DNA from: a phage
Sequence record: PZ452610.1
Reading direction: 5' to 3' (one strand)
Length of the DNA stretch: 64,000 nt
Within the stretch, counting starts at the first letter, position 1; each line of letters begins with the position of its first letter. A program made the translations under genes and the position numbers. Below, in pieces: positions 60,597 through 64,000 of this stretch. Under the pieces are notes generated by a model. It searched no databases. It worked only from the letters and a program-made list of their open reading frames with translations, and was not told the origin of the DNA.

Positions 60597-60649
60597 TGTA
60601 TTTTTCCATAGGCATCATTATATTTTACTCATGTTTAAAAGATAAGATG

Positions 60650-60676
60650 ATTATATACTAAGGGTTATACAGCATT
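60650..60676 (-). promoter_or_regulatory. candidate MotA-dependent middle promoter (uvsX)
   Basis: minus strand AATGCTGTA + 12 bp + TATAAT in the 98-nt gap upstream of uvsX. Confidence 0.4.
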
Positions 60677-60694
60677 TAAAACTTTAAATGACTC

Positions 60695-61243
60695 TTAACG
60701 AGCCCATTTGATGATTTCTGTAATCAAATCATTACGTTCGCTTGCATTAAATCCTATAACTTTGTTAGCACCATCATGATTAAGTAATTGATACGTTTGG
60801 ATTTTGTTATGAATTGCAAACTCTTCAAAATGTGAAATGACTGTATTAAAACCGAATGAAGACAAAGTGATAAGGTCGTCTTCAAAACTTTCAGTCATTT
60901 CGTTACGTGTTAAAATAATTGTGAACACATCATGGTTTTGGCAAAGACGAACATAATCCTGTTCATAAACGTCAAGAACCGAGTCCGCATCTTGTCGAAT
61001 ACGTCCATAAACCCAGTTACTAATATATCCACGGTCTAACAGATAAATCTTAGTAGGGTCTAAATAATTCAACATCGTTTCGAAACAGCCAACTTCATTT
61101 CGAGACTTAACATCGAAACGTCCATCAACTGTTCGTTTAGGGAAATCAATCTTTACATATCTTTCACTAATTTCCATTATGTCATTAATGAAAGTTGTTT
61201 TACCAGCATTATCCGGGCCATCTACTAAAATAATTTTAGCCAT
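60695..61243 (-). CDS. thymidylate-kinase-like P-loop nucleotide kinase
   Basis: 182 aa; IILVDGPDNAGKTT (Walker A as in Tmk IEGLEGAGKTT) and LDRGYISNWVYG (Tmk DRH..S..AYQ-like). Confidence 0.55.
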   Translation of the reverse strand: MAKIILVDGPDNAGKTTFINDIMEISERYVKIDFPKRTVDGRFDVKSRNEVGCFETMLNYLDPTKIYLLDRGYISNWVYGRIRQDADSVLDVYEQDYVRLCQNHDVFTIILTRNEMTESFEDDLITLSSFGFNTVISHFEEFAIHNKIQTYQLLNHDGANKVIGFNASERNDLITEIIKWAR

Positions 61244-61244
61244 T

Positions 61245-62144
61245 TTATTCCTCGATTACGACATCTTCATATTTAGGTATATTATACGGTGAAGAAATTA
61301 AAGCATTAAAGTAGATGAACTCACCAAGACCTGGATGAAATACTTCTTCAGGATTTTCGAAATATTGAATCTTCGGACGTCCTTTAAGAATTTGATAGTA
61401 CTCAGTTTTAGTTGGTTTAAAAATTCGAATCAACGCTTCTTCAGGATACTTATTTCTGTCGAAGCTATTATTTGGATCGGTTATATAAAGCGGTTGACCT
61501 AATTGAATTGCGCATTCAACAACTTGTTCAAAACGATAGCATGGGTCACTAATTCGAAATGGATGAAAAATACCATCTAGATGAATAGGAGCCAAATCAC
61601 CTACAAGACGCTGCATGATGGAAGGACGTATAACTTTCTGCGTTACGATAATCTTATTACCATCTGCACCTGCGTTAACCAGCACTTCTTTTTGACGTTC
61701 ATTCAACACAGTAGTTTGAAGTGAACGATTAACCGACAACATATCAGTTTTTAAGAATTCGTCAATATAAAAACGTGGTTTATTAGGGTCTGCAGTGATA
61801 TTGAAATTGAATTCCACATCAAAAGCGCCGTCATATCCAGTGATATCTGTGATTAAAAAATCACAATCATAATAAGCAATTAATGAATCAACAACAAATT
61901 CATTTTCAGACCAGAAATATTTACGAGTGTTATACGCGTTATCTTTATACCATAATGGAACAAACTTAAATTCTGGAAAAAGACGTTCGCATTCTTTAAT
62001 ATCAGATGCATTACGTGGATATGTAATCACATCACCCGGATTAGCACGGTGCAAATGAAGTTGGAAGTTGCCATCCTTAAGGATAGCATACTGTCCAGTT
62101 TCATAAGACCGCATACTCAAGATTGGTACGCGGAAAATAGCCAT
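61245..62144 (-). CDS. hypothetical protein with DxD-like motif (possible GT-A-type transferase)
   Basis: 299 aa; hydrophobic strand then DCD (LIAYYDCDFLITD); occupies the slot where T4 has beta-gt; tightly coupled to flanking genes. Confidence 0.3.
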   Translation of the reverse strand: MAIFRVPILSMRSYETGQYAILKDGNFQLHLHRANPGDVITYPRNASDIKECERLFPEFKFVPLWYKDNAYNTRKYFWSENEFVVDSLIAYYDCDFLITDITGYDGAFDVEFNFNITADPNKPRFYIDEFLKTDMLSVNRSLQTTVLNERQKEVLVNAGADGNKIIVTQKVIRPSIMQRLVGDLAPIHLDGIFHPFRISDPCYRFEQVVECAIQLGQPLYITDPNNSFDRNKYPEEALIRIFKPTKTEYYQILKGRPKIQYFENPEEVFHPGLGEFIYFNALISSPYNIPKYEDVVIEE

Positions 62145-62860
62145 TAGTCAAGGAATCCTTTAACATAATCAAAATCACGTTCAAACACATGGGCACTTAC
62201 CATGGTATGAGTATAATCACCAACTTCTACCCCACATTCGTTAGCGATATAATGAAGTAATTTTCCTTGGAGATAAAAATCCAACTGCATAACAACAGCA
62301 CAGTTCTGAGAACGCATATGACAGTGGGTATAAAGCTTACCATCACGAATATAATAAGTCACTGAGTCAGTACATGGATATTCAAGCGTTTCGTCCGAAT
62401 CAAGCAAAGCCTGATCAGAACTTTCTAGAATTTGGAACACAACTCTTCGAGAGTTAGGCTTCTCTTTAAGTTCTTTTAGAAGAGCTGGTAATTGGGCCGC
62501 AATGCGAGGACCATAGAAAGTGTTGAAGTTCGCCGGCAAAACATCTGATTTTGGTTTAGAAATAAATTTAGCGACATTAGGATATGCCTTAAACGCTTCT
62601 TCTGCGTTGGTACCACCAGAAATCATAAACTTCCAGAAGTCTTCGGCATATTCATAAGAGATGCGGTTAATACGTGGGTCGGTCATTTTGAATGATGATG
62701 GAGTGTCAACAACTACTGTCATAGACCCAATTTCATTACAACGTCCAATACGAGAATCAGTTACGAATTCCGGGTTTTCTAAAATTTCACGATTGACTGC
62801 TTTAAATGCGGTTTGAAAATCTGCGGCTTTGATATATTTCATTGTGTTATGTTTTCCCAT
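62144..62860 (-). CDS. thymidylate-synthase-fold dCMP hydroxymethylase-like enzyme
   Basis: 238 aa; KPNSRRVVFQI, YPCTDS (nucleophile Cys), MRSQN....D signature of TS/dCMP-HMase fold with Asp at the cytosine-specifying position; N-terminal two thirds unlike remembered T4 gp42. Confidence 0.6.
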   Translation of the reverse strand: MGKHNTMKYIKAADFQTAFKAVNREILENPEFVTDSRIGRCNEIGSMTVVVDTPSSFKMTDPRINRISYEYAEDFWKFMISGGTNAEEAFKAYPNVAKFISKPKSDVLPANFNTFYGPRIAAQLPALLKELKEKPNSRRVVFQILESSDQALLDSDETLEYPCTDSVTYYIRDGKLYTHCHMRSQNCAVVMQLDFYLQGKLLHYIANECGVEVGDYTHTMVSAHVFERDFDYVKGFLD

Positions 62861-62902
62861 GTTTACCTCAATACAATTTATTATATACTCAATTCGTAAA
62901 GC

Positions 62903-63142
62903 TTATTTGAATTTCTTGACAATGTTGATATAACGTAAAGCTTCAGCATCGATACTTCCAAGAACACTATGAAGAAATGCATCAGCGTAGTATTCCAATT
63001 GAACAGGTTCTTTAATCACTTTAGCCGCTTTAGTTTCAAACAGGCCCATCAGGGCCTTTTTAAGAATTTGTTCGTTGCTGTTAATTTTCATAGTCAAAAT
63101 CTCTTCATTAAGTTGGTGGTTAAAAGTTTTTCTAGAAATCAT
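62903..63142 (-). CDS. hypothetical protein
   Basis: 79 aa ORF between U32-like and TS-fold genes. Confidence 0.45.
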   Translation of the reverse strand: MISRKTFNHQLNEEILTMKINSNEQILKKALMGLFETKAAKVIKEPVQLEYYADAFLHSVLGSIDAEALRYINIVKKFK

Positions 63143-64000
63143 TCCGGGTACCTCAAAGCGTCATCAGAGTTAGTTATATCAATAATAGATATAGAGTTTT
63201 CTGCTAACCCGTTTTTAGATAATTGACGTTTATAATATCTTTCACAATATGTACACGTCGTCCCGCAGATTTCATTAGCACAATCGAAATCTGGATGTCT
63301 GAACCACCTTTTTTCTAAAAAGCCATCTAACAAAGAGGTTTCAATATTTACTGTATGTGAAAACTCAGTTTCGTTTTCAAGAGTGAAAATAGTCTCTAAA
63401 GGCTTCCACAGTTCTAACAAATTACCTTCAAACTTTTCAGAAGCGTATGCTTCAAGAACTTTCAAAATGTAGTCTGTGCTACCTGTACGTCCTGAAACTT
63501 TGAATTGAGTGATACCAATATCATTATAAAGTTTCAAATCTTGAGGACGAACAAAACGAGTTCTCAACCAGTTAAATGGGTCTGTATCACGAGCTTTAAT
63601 ACAGTGCTGCATAGGATATCCGTTTAAGGATTTAGCATCATCAGCTGTAACATCAGTACTATGGAAAATATAGCAAGAGTCACGATAGCTACAATGTGTT
63701 GTATACCCTTTACCAGCATTAGAACAGAACTCATTTACAAGAACTTCAAATATTATATTGTTCTTATTGCAAAACTCTGCTGCACGCTTCAGGAAAGAAA
63801 CTGAACGGTTCTTATGAATTCCACAGCAGACCTTTTTGATATTATACTGGTCATGCAAGTATTTGATTTGAGTTACAGCATCGACATGTAGAATTGTTGA
63901 AACTTCAATCTCAATGTCTTTATTGACTTCACGAACAATTTCCATAACAACAGGGTTAGCGATAGTAATACGCCATACGCCTATTGACCAAAGATACTGA
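63139..64000 (-). CDS. U32-peptidase-family protein (RlhA/TrhP/UbiU-like Fe-S enzyme), C-terminal part; gene continues past window end
   Basis: frame open to position 64000; FEVLVNEFCSNAGKGYTTHCSYRDSC (C-x10-C-x4-C) and DIGITQFKVSGRTGSTDYILKVLEAY (KIEGR-like) resemble U32 core; extra C-terminal CxxxCxxxCxxC. Confidence 0.5.
   Translation of the reverse strand, partial: QYLWSIGVWRITIANPVVMEIVREVNKDIEIEVSTILHVDAVTQIKYLHDQYNIKKVCCGIHKNRSVSFLKRAAEFCNKNNIIFEVLVNEFCSNAGKGYTTHCSYRDSCYIFHSTDVTADDAKSLNGYPMQHCIKARDTDPFNWLRTRFVRPQDLKLYNDIGITQFKVSGRTGSTDYILKVLEAYASEKFEGNLLELWKPLETIFTLENETEFSHTVNIETSLLDGFLEKRWFRHPDFDCANEICGTTCTYCERYYKRQLSKNGLAENSISIIDITNSDDALRYPE

What the first reader, a model, noticed from the sequence alone, without database searches (positions are those of the whole stretch)
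60695..64000. Candidate nucleotide/DNA hypermodification module upstream of uvsX: Tmk-like kinase, DxD protein, divergent TS-fold enzyme and a U32-family Fe-S enzyme
Where T4 (as I recall it) has beta-gt, 42 and imm upstream of uvsX, this window has five tightly coupled co-directional genes. (1) 63139-64000: a U32-peptidase-family protein running off the window edge, with a KIEGR-like KVSGR motif and a C-x10-C-x4-C cysteine cluster like the Fe-S ligands of the O2-independent hydroxylases UbiU/UbiV, RlhA and TrhP. (2) 62903-63142: a 79-aa ORF. (3) 62144-62860: a thymidylate-synthase-fold protein (PNSRR, YPCT, MRSQN..D) with Asp at the cytosine-specifying position but otherwise unlike T4 gp42 as I remember it. 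(4) 61245-62144: a 299-aa protein with a DCD motif after a hydrophobic strand. (5) 60695-61243: a thymidylate-kinase-like P-loop kinase. Flanking core genes (uvsX, 41, 32, 59) are about 85-90% T4-like, so this looks like a module replacement. Kinase plus TS-fold enzyme plus transferase plus putative hydroxylase is the gene content expected of a pyrimidine hypermodification pathway. I know of no U32 enzyme in T4.
Basis: partly seen in the sequence, partly recalled or inferred. Interest (0 to 1): 0.85.

Follow-up and report, generated by a model that had tools for sequence, protein, structure and literature searches.

The report
Known arabinosyl-hydroxycytosine DNA modification genes
These five genes belong to the already published pathway by which RB69-like phages replace cytosine in their DNA with arabinose-decorated 5-hydroxycytosine; only the U32 enzyme has no assigned role, and comparative genomics suggests it makes the same hydroxylated base without oxygen.

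Summary
Five co-directional minus-strand genes lie upstream of uvsX. The window is a Mosigvirus: 100% identical to E. coli O157 typing phages 3/6/13 and 98.5% to RB69. The genes are RB69 gp45-gp50 (97.5-100% protein identity), the uvsX-proximal half of the published arabinosyl-5-hydroxycytosine cluster (Lee et al. NAR 2026; He et al. 2026; Mahler et al. 2025). The TS-fold protein is the experimentally shown FMN/O2-dependent 5-hydroxy-dCMP synthase, about 98% identical to PDB 9IQC. The 299-aa protein is arabinosyltransferase 1. The kinase is Tmk-like. So the module is already known.

The U32 protein (gp50) has no explained role. It is a confident U32 TIM barrel with ten invariant cysteines and is the most uniformly conserved protein of the cluster. 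In 51 related phage genomes a catalytically intact chorismate mutase follows it; this window lacks that gene, and its 79-aa ORF is unrelated to it. In 33 distant viral contigs, U32 relatives sit beside homologues of the same glycosyltransferase (23) and sugar-activating genes (16), and beside chorismate mutase or DAHP synthase (11). None has a gp48-type enzyme nearby. I infer, at about 45%, an O2-independent, prephenate-dependent pyrimidine C5 hydroxylase.

The parts
60695..61243 (-). Tmk-like P-loop nucleotide kinase (RB69 gp45 orthologue, 99.5% identical)
   Evidence: ORF. PHROG 761 'thymidylate kinase' at 1.6e-45. It falls below the NCBIfam dTMP-kinase cut-off (16.6 vs 83 bits). Identity to RB69p045. 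Lee et al. list it as 'nucleotide kinase' with Tmk structural matches. Substrate unknown.
61245..62144 (-). DNA/nucleotide arabinosyltransferase 1 (RB69 gp46:47, intact here)
   Evidence: ORF. PHROG 3891 at 3e-156. It is 99-100% identical to the two halves of RB69 ORF047 and ORF046, which a frameshift splits in the RB69 reference. Lee et al. propose it as the first arabinosyltransferase, with GT-B structural matches. Homologues at 24-27% identity lie next to U32 relatives in distant phage contigs.
62144..62860 (-). 5-hydroxy-dCMP synthase, a thymidylate-synthase-fold enzyme that uses FMN and O2 (RB69 gp48)
   Evidence: PF00303 at 2e-15. It is 99.2% identical to RB69 gp48, for which activity was shown in vivo with 18O2 labelling. 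It is about 98% identical to PDB 9IQC/9IR2/9IQU and 25% to T4 gp42. It carries the D169N (MRSQN) and N177D (QLDF) signatures.
62903..63142 (-). gp49, a 79-aa predicted two-helix hairpin of unknown function; not a chorismate mutase
   Evidence: PHROG 8601. No Pfam or NCBIfam hit. hhalign against the phage chorismate mutases gives 0.2% probability. The AF2 model is a helix hairpin with pLDDT 79 and has no significant fold match. It evolves fast and is often truncated.
63139..64000 (-). C-terminal 286 residues of the U32-family protein gp50 (full length 386 aa); proposed Fe-S, prephenate-dependent hydroxylase
62861..62902 (-). Intergenic gap with a MotA-box-like sequence (AAGCTTTA), 11 nt, TATAAT and a GAGG ribosome-binding site ahead of the TS gene; possible T4-type middle promoter
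   Evidence: Read by eye from the sequence printed. The generic sigma-70 scan found nothing above chance. This is inference only.

Best explanation
WHAT IT IS (shown). The window comes from an RB69-like Mosigvirus. Positions 60695-64000 are RB69 genes 45-50, the uvsX-proximal half of the gene cluster (gp45-gp55, between uvsX and DNA polymerase) that replaces cytosine in virion DNA with arabinosylated 5-hydroxycytosine.

PUBLISHED STEPS. gp48 (62144-62860) is a thymidylate-synthase homologue that uses a flavin and O2 to convert dCMP to 5-hydroxy-dCMP. The T4-gp1-type dNMP kinase, encoded elsewhere in the genome, phosphorylates that product. Genes just beyond the window make UDP-arabinofuranose: arabinose-5-P isomerase, a bifunctional kinase/uridylyltransferase and a HAD phosphatase. 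gp46:47 (61245-62144) is proposed to add the first arabinose.

INFERRED.
(i) The Tmk-like kinase gp45 handles a modified dNMP. It travels with the TS-fold enzyme and the transferase in all such phages, and an NMP kinase also accompanies many U32 relatives.
(ii) The U32 protein gp50 is an Fe-S, prephenate-dependent, O2-independent C5 hydroxylase of a pyrimidine (deoxy)nucleotide or of DNA. It would act like RlhA, TrhP and UbiU/V and give a second, anaerobic route to 5-hydroxycytosine. I put this at about 45-50%. In most related genera a chorismate mutase gene right after the U32 gene would supply prephenate. Mosigviruses have lost that gene and would rely on host PheA/TyrA.
(iii) gp49 is a dispensable small helical accessory protein.
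For: IDENTITY.
- The region is 100% identical in DNA to O157 typing phages 3/6/13 and 98.5% to RB69. Protein identities to RB69 gp45-gp50 are 97.5-100%, with the same gene order.
- The rest of the cluster is present in the 100%-identical phage.
- Published functions. A 2021 comparative study had already tied RB69p045-051 to the modification.
- gp48 is about 98% identical to PDB 9IQC.

U32 INFERENCE.
- Family and fold are confirmed.
- C158, C192, C203, C209, C233, C340, C345, C349 and C352 are invariant in 114 sequences; C177 is conserved in 98% of 121.
- The best profile match among the E. coli paralogues is RlhA, the 5-hydroxycytidine synthase. C203/C209 align to its Fe-S ligand positions C169/C176, and FKVSGR aligns to FKIEGR.
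- Identity of the U32 protein to the window copy is 79-89% across 15 non-Mosigvirus loci, a higher floor than DNA polymerase at 65-83%.
- A chorismate mutase above the Pfam threshold follows the U32 gene, often with a 4-bp overlap, in 51 phage records. R11, R28, K39, E52, S84 and Q88 are all conserved in it. In Shewanella phage Thanatos-2 the U32-mutase pair sits at a different place in the cluster.
- Distant U32 relatives (39-58% identity) lie next to a DAHP synthase, a DAHP-synthase/chorismate-mutase fusion and a TET-associated glycosyltransferase.
- In 33 distant viral contigs, within 10 kb of the U32 gene: homologues of this window's transferase in 23, NT/kinase in 16, arabinose-5-P isomerase in 9, chorismate mutase and/or DAHP synthase in 11. 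No gp48-type TS is present; the single TS hit is an ordinary ThyA.
- TS-bearing phages of Acinetobacter, Pseudomonas, Rhizobium and Agrobacterium have no detectable U32. Genome bins that carry relatives are almost all from anaerobes.
- Prephenate is the oxygen donor or requirement for the known U32 hydroxylases (PMC10990095, PMC6599085, PMC5727448).
Against: - No experiment bears on gp50.
- RB69 gp48 plus the dNMP kinase suffice to put 5-hydroxy-dC into E. coli DNA aerobically. DLP3, which has no U32, still makes arabinosyl-5hoC. gp50 is therefore not required in air.
- E. coli Dhakaviruses such as VR5 carry the TS/transferase/kinase set without U32, so U32 is not obligatory in a facultative anaerobe.
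- This window's own lineage lacks the chorismate mutase.
- Only two of the four canonical U32 cysteine positions align, and the KIEGR glutamate is Ser/Thr.
- Lee et al. label gp50 'sugar or heterocycle reductase'. Its steady company of sugar-activating genes would also fit a sugar role.
- Mahler et al. 2025 and He et al. 2026 could not be read and may address gp50.
- TS genes further than 10 kb from the U32 gene in the distant contigs cannot be excluded.
Confidence: 0.85

Rival explanations
1. gp50 works on the sugar side of the pathway, as the 'sugar or heterocycle reductase' label of Lee et al. suggests. It would modify arabinose-phosphate or the NDP-sugar rather than the base.
For: Table 1 of Lee et al. 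carries that label. U32 relatives co-occur with arabinose-5-P isomerase, the NT/kinase, epimerases and glycosyltransferases in many contigs.
Against: Phages without U32 (DLP3, and by gene content VR5 and PspYZU05) carry the same sugar pathway, and DLP3 makes the same arabinofuranosyl-5hoC. No characterised U32 enzyme acts on a sugar; the characterised ones hydroxylate aromatic or heteroaromatic carbons using prephenate. The links to chorismate mutase and DAHP synthase have no rationale in sugar chemistry. The distant contigs would then have no enzyme to create the glycosylation acceptor.
Confidence: 0.15
2. gp50, with chorismate mutase where present, modifies RNA during infection. It would be a phage copy of TrhP or RlhA making ho5U34 in tRNA or ho5C in rRNA, and its position in the DNA-modification cluster would be incidental.
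For: The only nucleic-acid substrates known for U32 hydroxylases are tRNA and rRNA. The best profile match is RlhA. T4-like phages encode tRNAs (general knowledge).
Against: The gene is embedded in the DNA-modification operon and translationally coupled to it in every lineage. Relatives in unrelated phages sit by dCMP deaminase, Tmk-like kinases, UDG-family genes, dUTPase/DCD and DNA glycosyltransferases, including a TET-associated glycosyltransferase. E. coli already has TrhP and RlhA. gp50 lacks the C-terminal domains of TrhP and RlhA (386 aa against 453 and 653).
Confidence: 0.1
3. gp50 is a protease, as annotated ('peptidase U32', 'collagenase-like'), or a passenger gene with no role in DNA modification.
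For: Database annotations. The U32 family was named for reported collagenases.
Against: It is the most uniformly conserved protein of the region (79-89% across genera) and is at least 99% identical in 133 Mosigvirus records. Ten cysteines are invariant or nearly so. It has a consistent nucleotide and glycosylation gene neighbourhood across very distant viruses.
Confidence: 0.05
4. The block is a divergent version of the T4 glucosyl-hydroxymethylcytosine system: a gp42-type hydroxymethylase plus a glucosyltransferase.
For: The TS-fold enzyme has Asp at the cytosine-specifying position, and many records annotate it as 'dCMP hydroxymethylase'.
Against: It is 25% identical to gp42 and carries the D169N change that marks hydroxylases. 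The 99%-identical RB69 enzyme makes 5-hydroxy-dCMP with oxygen from O2, and RB69 DNA carries arabinosyl-5hoC by NMR and MS. There is no detectable similarity to beta-gt.
Confidence: 0.01

Closest known systems
RB69 gp45-gp55 / phage HY126 Afh pathway (arabinofuranosyl-5-hydroxycytosine; Lee et al. NAR 2026, He et al. Nat Chem Biol 2026, Mahler et al. Cell Host Microbe 2025)
   Same: Same genes in the same order. Protein identities are 97.5-100% and DNA identity is 98.5%. The TS-fold enzyme is about 98% identical to PDB 9IQC.
   Different: Nothing material. The transferase gene is intact here, whereas a frameshift splits it in the RB69 reference. The papers I could read give gp49 and gp50 no function, and gp45 only a generic one.
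T4 gp42 (dCMP hydroxymethylase) plus alpha/beta-glucosyltransferases
   Same: Same genomic slot between uvsX and gene 43. Same logic: a TS-fold enzyme alters dCMP before replication and a transferase adds sugar to the new hydroxyl.
   Different: Only 25% identity. The cofactor is flavin with O2 rather than methylene-tetrahydrofolate with water. The hydroxyl sits directly on C5. The sugar is arabinose, made by phage enzymes. The cluster also has an extra kinase, a U32 protein and a small ORF.
Prephenate-dependent U32 hydroxylases: RlhA (ho5C2501 of 23S rRNA), TrhP (ho5U34 of tRNA), UbiU/UbiV (anaerobic ubiquinone)
   Same: Pfam U32 family and TIM-barrel fold. The C-x5/6-C-Y-x-x-H and FK-x-x-GR motifs align with RlhA. 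There is a genomic link to prephenate supply. RlhA's product, 5-hydroxycytosine, is the very base these phages build on.
   Different: The third and fourth canonical cysteines are not in register. Other invariant cysteines and a C-terminal C-x4-C-x3-C-x2-C motif are specific to this subfamily. The RlhA/TrhP C-terminal domains are absent. The presumed substrate is a deoxynucleotide or DNA. Activity is untested.
Dual O2-dependent / O2-independent hydroxylation pairs (TrhO/TrhP; UbiI,H,F/UbiU,V)
   Same: One genome encodes an O2-requiring hydroxylase (gp48) and a U32 protein for what may be the same product. The distribution is TS-only in the sampled phages of aerobes, U32 without a nearby gp48-type TS in phage contigs and genome bins mostly from anaerobes, and both in most of the related phages of facultative anaerobes.
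   Different: The redundancy here is inferred from gene content only.
Phage TET/JBP dioxygenase plus TET-associated glycosyltransferase (TAGT) systems
   Same: In one distant phage contig a TAGT gene overlaps the stop codon of the U32 gene. This pairs a base oxidiser with a glycosyltransferase.
   Different: There the oxidiser is an O2/2-oxoglutarate dioxygenase acting on 5mC in DNA. No TET gene is present here.

Membership tests
RB69-type arabinosyl-5-hydroxycytosine cluster (gp45-gp55) | Orthologues of RB69 gp45, 46:47, 48, 49 and 50 in the same order next to uvsX | tested here: met
   97.5-100% protein identity and 98.5% DNA identity over 3.4 kb.
RB69-type arabinosyl-5-hydroxycytosine cluster (gp45-gp55) | Remaining cluster genes (HAD phosphatase, bifunctional NT/kinase, arabinose-5-P isomerase) between U32 and DNA polymerase | tested here: met
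   They lie outside the window but are present in the 100%-identical phage KP869101.
RB69-type arabinosyl-5-hydroxycytosine cluster (gp45-gp55) | Virion DNA contains arabinosylated 5-hydroxycytosine | not testable with these tools
   Shown for RB69 by LC-MS and NMR. Needs LC-MS on this phage.
[quoted passage not shown] | TS fold plus N177D (cytosine specificity) and D169N (the hydroxylase signature proposed by Lee et al.) | tested here: met
   PF00303 at 2e-15. MRSQN and QLDF are aligned against T4 gp42's RSND and RNDY. Signature described. About 98% identical to PDB 9IQC.
T4 gp42 dCMP hydroxymethylase orthologue | High identity to gp42 and Asp at the D169-equivalent position | tested here: not met
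   25% identity over 218 aa, with Asn at that position.
Peptidase U32 family (Pfam PF01136) | Profile match above the gathering score and a U32 TIM-barrel fold | tested here: met
Prephenate-dependent U32 hydroxylases (RlhA/TrhP/UbiU/UbiV) | Four-cysteine Fe-S motif C-x6-C-x15-C-x3/4-C | tested here: inconclusive
   C203/C209 (spacing x5) align to RlhA C169/C176. RlhA C192/C196 have no aligned Cys, but C158, C192 and C233 are invariant and C177 is at 98% nearby.
Prephenate-dependent U32 hydroxylases (RlhA/TrhP/UbiU/UbiV) | Equivalog-level match to a characterised member | tested here: not met
   The only NCBIfam hit is UbiU at 17.7 bits against a cut-off of 440. hhalign to RlhA gives 87% probability. 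It is a separate subfamily.
Prephenate-dependent U32 hydroxylases (RlhA/TrhP/UbiU/UbiV) | Fe-S cluster binding and O2-independent, prephenate-dependent hydroxylation | not testable with these tools
   Only contextual support: chorismate mutase, DAHP synthase or a fusion of the two adjacent to the gene in many genomes.
AroQ chorismate mutase (for the 79-aa ORF) | Pfam CM_2 match and the catalytic residues R11, R28, K39, E52, S84, Q88 | tested here: not met
   No CM_2 hit even at E<=10. hhalign against the phage chorismate mutases gives 0.2% probability. The true mutases of related phages keep all six residues. No chorismate mutase is found anywhere in the window.
dTMP kinase (Tmk) | Equivalog-level profile match; P-loop and DR(Y/F/H)-type motif | tested here: inconclusive
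   P-loop GPDNAGKT and DRG are present and PHROG 761 matches at 1.6e-45. TIGR00041 gives 16.6 bits against a cut-off of 83, and there is no PDB sequence hit. It has a Tmk-like fold according to Lee et al.. It is not a Tmk orthologue.
GT-A (DxD) glycosyltransferase, for the 299-aa protein | Rossmann-like GT-A fold with a catalytic DxD motif | not tested

The most novel reading that the evidence does not exclude
gp50 defines a phage subfamily of U32 Fe-S enzymes that hydroxylate C5 of a pyrimidine deoxynucleotide (or of DNA) without O2. The oxygen donor would be prephenate, supplied by the host or by phage-encoded chorismate mutase or DAHP synthase. In RB69-like phages this would be an anaerobic backup to the O2-dependent TS-fold 5-hydroxy-dCMP synthase. 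In many phages of obligate anaerobes it would be the only enzyme creating the acceptor for DNA glycosylation. This would be the first DNA-directed use of the U32/prephenate chemistry. It would predict a large, unexplored set of glycosylated hydroxypyrimidine DNAs in gut and sediment phages.
Probability: 0.45. Interest if true: 0.8.

Novelty: already known. Interest (0 to 1): 0.45.

Why it matters
The module itself is textbook-in-the-making. It shows how RB69-like phages evade restriction and CRISPR by building arabosylated (arabinose-decorated) 5-hydroxycytosine, and this window adds nothing new to that.

The open piece is gp50. The published hydroxylase needs molecular oxygen, yet these phages prey on enteric bacteria that often grow without it. 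If the U32 protein is a prephenate-dependent hydroxylase, that paradox is resolved. The U32/prephenate chemistry would extend from RNA and quinones to DNA precursors. The phage-encoded chorismate mutases and DAHP synthases would be explained. It would also give a sequence marker (U32 with a gp46:47-like transferase and no TS-fold enzyme) for finding new hypermodified DNAs in phages of anaerobes. Finally, it bears on using such phages therapeutically in the anoxic gut.

Tried and rejected
1. The 79-aa ORF as a degenerate chorismate mutase. A chorismate mutase occupies a similar position after the U32 gene in Entb_45 and Thanatos. Rejected: some phages have both genes in tandem, hhalign gives 0.2% probability, and there is no CM_2 hit.
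2. Structure of gp49. The model is a helix hairpin with pLDDT 79 and no fold match better than E=2. Uninformative.
3. Sequence search of U32, the transferase and the kinase against PDB. No meaningful hits.
4. The AFDB50 fold library was unavailable.
Model coordinates could not be inspected, so Cys-Cys geometry was not checked.
6. Reading Mahler 2025, He 2026 and Pelosi 2019: none is held. The Cys ligand numbering for UbiU/UbiV is from memory; it matches Cys positions in the E. coli sequences.
7. Literature searches for U32, chorismate mutase or prephenate in connection with phage DNA modification found nothing relevant. The Thanatos, Durham, Thomas 2018 and Tn-seq papers do not mention gp50.
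8. The generic promoter/terminator scan found nothing above chance.
9. T4 gp42 orthology and beta-gt homology: rejected.

Full report
1. WHAT IS THERE

They are tightly packed. The U32 stop and gp49 start overlap as ATGA, the TS stop and transferase start as TAATG, and the transferase stop and kinase start read TAAAATG. The only gap inside the block is 42 nt, ahead of the TS-fold gene. No terminator-like site lies inside.

The edge ORF matches Pfam Peptidase_U32 above the gathering score as a fragment (24.8 bits). The full 386-aa protein, taken from a 100%-identical phage, scores 42.2 bits. The window holds its last 286 residues.

The 238-aa protein is a thymidylate-synthase-family member. The 182-aa protein has a P-loop and matches PHROG 761, 'thymidylate kinase'. 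The 299-aa and 79-aa proteins match only phage families of unknown function.

- The cysteine spacing is C-x10-C-x5-C.
- UvsX is 68% identical to T4. gp41 is 85% and gp40 is 83%.
- T4 does have segA, beta-gt, 42, imm and imm.1 in this slot.

2. WHERE IT COMES FROM

The 3.4-kb region is 100% identical to E. coli O157 typing phages 3, 6 and 13. It is 95-99% identical to some 140 other Mosigvirus genomes. Against RB69 it is 98.5% identical in DNA. The five proteins are 97.5-100% identical to RB69 gp45, gp46+47, gp48, gp49 and gp50, in the same order. The single gap in the DNA alignment corresponds to the frameshift that splits ORF046/047 in the RB69 reference.

In the identical phage the cluster continues beyond the window. 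It carries a HAD-type phosphatase, a bifunctional nucleotidyltransferase/kinase, a 47-aa ORF, an arabinose-5-phosphate isomerase and then DNA polymerase.

3. WHAT IS ALREADY KNOWN

Lee et al. (NAR 2026, PMC13326640) showed that RB69 DNA carries mono- and di-arabinosylated 5-hydroxycytosine. The sugar is attached directly to C5 through oxygen.

They showed that RB69 gp48 makes 5-hydroxy-dCMP from dCMP. Expression with the dNMP kinase gp159 puts 5-hydroxy-dC into E. coli DNA. The oxygen comes from 18O2, and the enzyme carries FMN. They assign gp45 as 'nucleotide kinase' and gp46:47 as arabinosyltransferase 1. gp51, gp52:53 and gp55 are assigned to UDP-arabinofuranose synthesis.

They cite He et al. 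(Nat Chem Biol 2026), who describe the crystal structure and in vitro reconstitution of the HY126 enzyme, and Mahler et al. (Cell Host Microbe 2025). I could read neither paper.

The window's TS-fold protein is about 98% identical to PDB entries 9IQC, 9IR2 and 9IQU. It is only 25% identical to T4 gp42. It carries Asp at the cytosine-specifying position and the Asp169-to-Asn change that Lee et al. propose as the mark of hydroxylases.

A 2021 comparative study had already listed RB69p045, 047, 049, 050 and 051 as presumed participants in the modification.

4. WHAT IS NOT EXPLAINED: gp50 AND gp49

Lee et al. mention gp50 only in a table, as 'sugar or heterocycle reductase'. [quoted passage not shown] It does not connect them to gp50. 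No paper I could search connects U32 proteins, chorismate mutase or prephenate to phage DNA modification.

5. THE U32 PROTEIN ITSELF

The following cysteines are invariant in 114 family members: C158, C192, C203, C209, C233, and a C-terminal C340-x4-C345-x3-C349-x2-C352 motif. C177 is present in 98% of a 121-sequence alignment.

I compared the family profile with the four E. coli U32 paralogues. It matches RlhA, the 23S rRNA 5-hydroxycytidine synthase, best (87% probability). C203 and C209 align to RlhA C169 and C176. CY-x-x-H and FK-x-x-GR also align. The third and fourth canonical cysteines are not in register. This is therefore a distinct U32 subfamily that probably binds Fe-S clusters.

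Across 15 loci from other genera, identity of the U32 protein to the window copy is 79-89%. DNA polymerase over the same phages is 65-83% and gp41 is 60-73%. The protein is at least 99% identical in 133 Mosigvirus records.

6. GENE NEIGHBOURHOOD IN RELATED T4-LIKE PHAGES

In Kanagawaviruses and in phages of Klebsiella, Yersinia, Pectobacterium, Serratia, Proteus/Providencia, Edwardsiella, Erwinia and Shewanella, a small AroQ chorismate mutase gene follows the U32 gene, often overlapping its stop codon. It is above the Pfam threshold (40.9 and 32.8 bits against 27). It occurs in 51 phage records, all within this group of T4-like phages. It keeps R11, R28, K39, E52, S84 and Q88 of the E. coli enzyme. 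In Shewanella phage Thanatos-2 the U32-mutase pair sits at a different place in the cluster.

Mosigviruses, including this window, have no chorismate mutase. Their 79-aa ORF is a different protein:
- In some phages it sits in tandem with the mutase.
- hhalign finds no relationship between the two (0.2% probability).
- It is predicted to be a two-helix hairpin with no fold match.
- It evolves much faster than its neighbours and is truncated in many genomes.

7. DISTRIBUTION AMONG SEQUENCED PHAGES

The TS-fold enzyme is found in 374 phage records and the U32 protein in 222. TS-bearing phages with no detectable U32 include all the Acinetobacter phages I sampled, Pseudomonas phage PspYZU05, and the Rhizobium and Agrobacterium phages. 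They also include E. coli Dhakaviruses such as VR5. Every U32-bearing phage record infects Enterobacterales or Shewanella, which are facultative anaerobes.

8. DISTANT RELATIVES

Metagenomic relatives at 39-58% identity lie in phage or phage-like contigs. Genome bins that carry relatives are almost all from anaerobes: Erysipelotrichales, Gastranaerophilaceae, Oscillospiraceae, Romboutsia, Tannerella, Phocaeicola and Angelakisella.

Individual neighbourhoods include:
- dCMP deaminase overlapping the U32 gene, with Tmk, UDG and Pol III alpha nearby.
- A DAHP synthase directly after U32 (237 bits against the DAHP-synthase model and 63 against KDO8P synthase).
- A DAHP-synthase/chorismate-mutase fusion directly before U32, preceded by isomerase and NT/kinase homologues.
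- A TET-associated glycosyltransferase overlapping the U32 stop codon, with a homologue of this window's transferase overlapping its start.

I counted genes within 10 kb of the U32 gene in 33 distant IMG/VR contigs:

| Neighbour | Contigs (of 33) |
|---|---|
| gp46:47-like transferase | 23 |
| gp52:53-like NT/kinase | 16 |
| arabinose-5-P isomerase homologue | 9 |
| chorismate mutase and/or DAHP synthase | 11 |
| dCMP deaminase | 5 |
| gp48-type TS enzyme | 0 |

The single TS-family hit in these contigs is an ordinary ThyA that keeps D169 and N177.

9. INFERENCE

Every U32 enzyme with a defined activity hydroxylates an aromatic or heteroaromatic carbon without O2. These enzymes depend on prephenate, which has been shown to be the oxygen donor for UbiU/V (PMC5727448, PMC6599085, PMC10990095). 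One of them, RlhA, makes 5-hydroxycytosine.

The phage subfamily is tied in three independent ways to prephenate supply. It is tied in many independent lineages to a glycosylation module that otherwise has no enzyme to create the acceptor hydroxyl.

The simplest reading is that gp50 is an O2-independent, prephenate-dependent C5 hydroxylase of a pyrimidine deoxynucleotide or of DNA. It would be redundant with gp48 in air and needed in anoxia. The observed pattern fits the precedent of TrhO/TrhP and UbiIHF/UbiUV: TS-only in the sampled phages of aerobes, U32 without a nearby TS in phage contigs and bins mostly from anaerobes, and both in most related phages of facultative anaerobes.

I put this at about 45%. 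The points against it are:
- There is no experiment.
- gp50 is dispensable in air.
- Dhakaviruses lack it.
- Mosigviruses lack the chorismate mutase.
- The cysteine motif is only partly canonical.
- Its constant association with sugar-activating genes leaves room for the sugar-side role that Lee et al. suggested.
- Two key papers could not be read.

The recurrent pairing of U32 with an NMP kinase suggests that the Tmk-like gp45 handles a modified dNMP. Examples are gp45 here, Tmk-like genes directly upstream of U32 in several T4-like phages, and Tmk, ADK or dNK genes in distant contigs. That is speculation.

10. VERDICT

The module as a whole is already known. The residual value is a specific, testable hypothesis for the one strongly conserved gene in the cluster that has no explained role.

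Noticed in passing
window 63244-63282 (minus strand; residues C340-C352 of full-length gp50): There is an invariant C-x4-C-x3-C-x2-C motif at the C-terminus of the U32 subfamily. Its last three cysteines (C-G-x-T-C-x-Y-C) have the spacing and the aromatic residue of the radical-SAM CxxxCxPhiC motif. This may be a second Fe-S site that the E. coli U32 enzymes lack.
   Followed up: partly
window 62861-62902 and 60597-60694 (minus strand): Both intergenic gaps contain a MotA-box-like sequence (AAGCTTTA and ATGCTGTA) 11-12 nt upstream of GTATATAAT. This suggests T4-type middle promoters ahead of the TS gene and ahead of uvsX. It was read by eye; the generic scan was not informative.
   Followed up: no
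window 62903-63142; proteins P0142-P0152: gp49 is far less conserved than its neighbours within Mosigvirus. Most records are 90-95% identical, against at least 99% for U32. It is frameshifted or truncated to 47-58 aa in many genomes and metagenomes. In phages EcS1 and CHI14 an N-terminal piece resembling gp49 is fused to the chorismate mutase.
   Followed up: partly
L045 2987-7080 (Phocaeicola faecalis); same order by ORF size in L044, L040, L043; same genes by Pfam in L026 and L027 (and, by matching ORF sizes, L038): A second recurrent operon surrounds U32 relatives in bacterial or archaeal bins. Its order is GP88-domain protein, a guanylate-kinase/SAM-methyltransferase fusion, a ~265-aa protein with weak AGOG/HhH-GPD similarity, then U32. 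Hydroxylase plus methyltransferase plus NMP kinase might make a 5-methoxy-pyrimidine nucleotide.
   Followed up: partly
L033 / L048 (Logan SRR33454321 contig, 61 kb): This phage contig has Gly_transf_sug, a Tmk-like kinase, a gp46:47-like transferase, U32, a TET-associated glycosyltransferase, dUTPase/DCD and UDP-galactopyranose mutase in a row. No TS-family gene lies within 10 kb. It is a candidate for a new glycosylated hydroxypyrimidine DNA.
   Followed up: partly
L049 6217-7117 (RB69 reference) versus window 61245-62144: The transferase is one 299-aa ORF here but is split into ORF047 and ORF046 in the RB69 reference by a single-base difference. This agrees with Lee et al.'s statement that the split is a sequencing error.
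   Followed up: yes
L001 10098-10859 (phage NRG-P0074): That Mosigvirus has a homing-endonuclease gene inserted between the HAD phosphatase and the NT/kinase gene of the cluster. The NT/kinase is annotated there as 'dCMP deaminase' and the HAD protein as 'phosphoheptose isomerase'. Both labels disagree with the NT/kinase and HAD-phosphatase assignments.
   Followed up: no
L006 (IMG/VR copy of the 168,532-bp genome that one search lists as Klebsiella phage Marfa) 9001-10918: This lineage has U32 followed directly by the TS gene, with neither gp49 nor chorismate mutase. Its Tmk-like kinase has moved to just upstream of U32. The small genes after U32 are therefore repeatedly gained and lost, while U32 stays.
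   Followed up: partly
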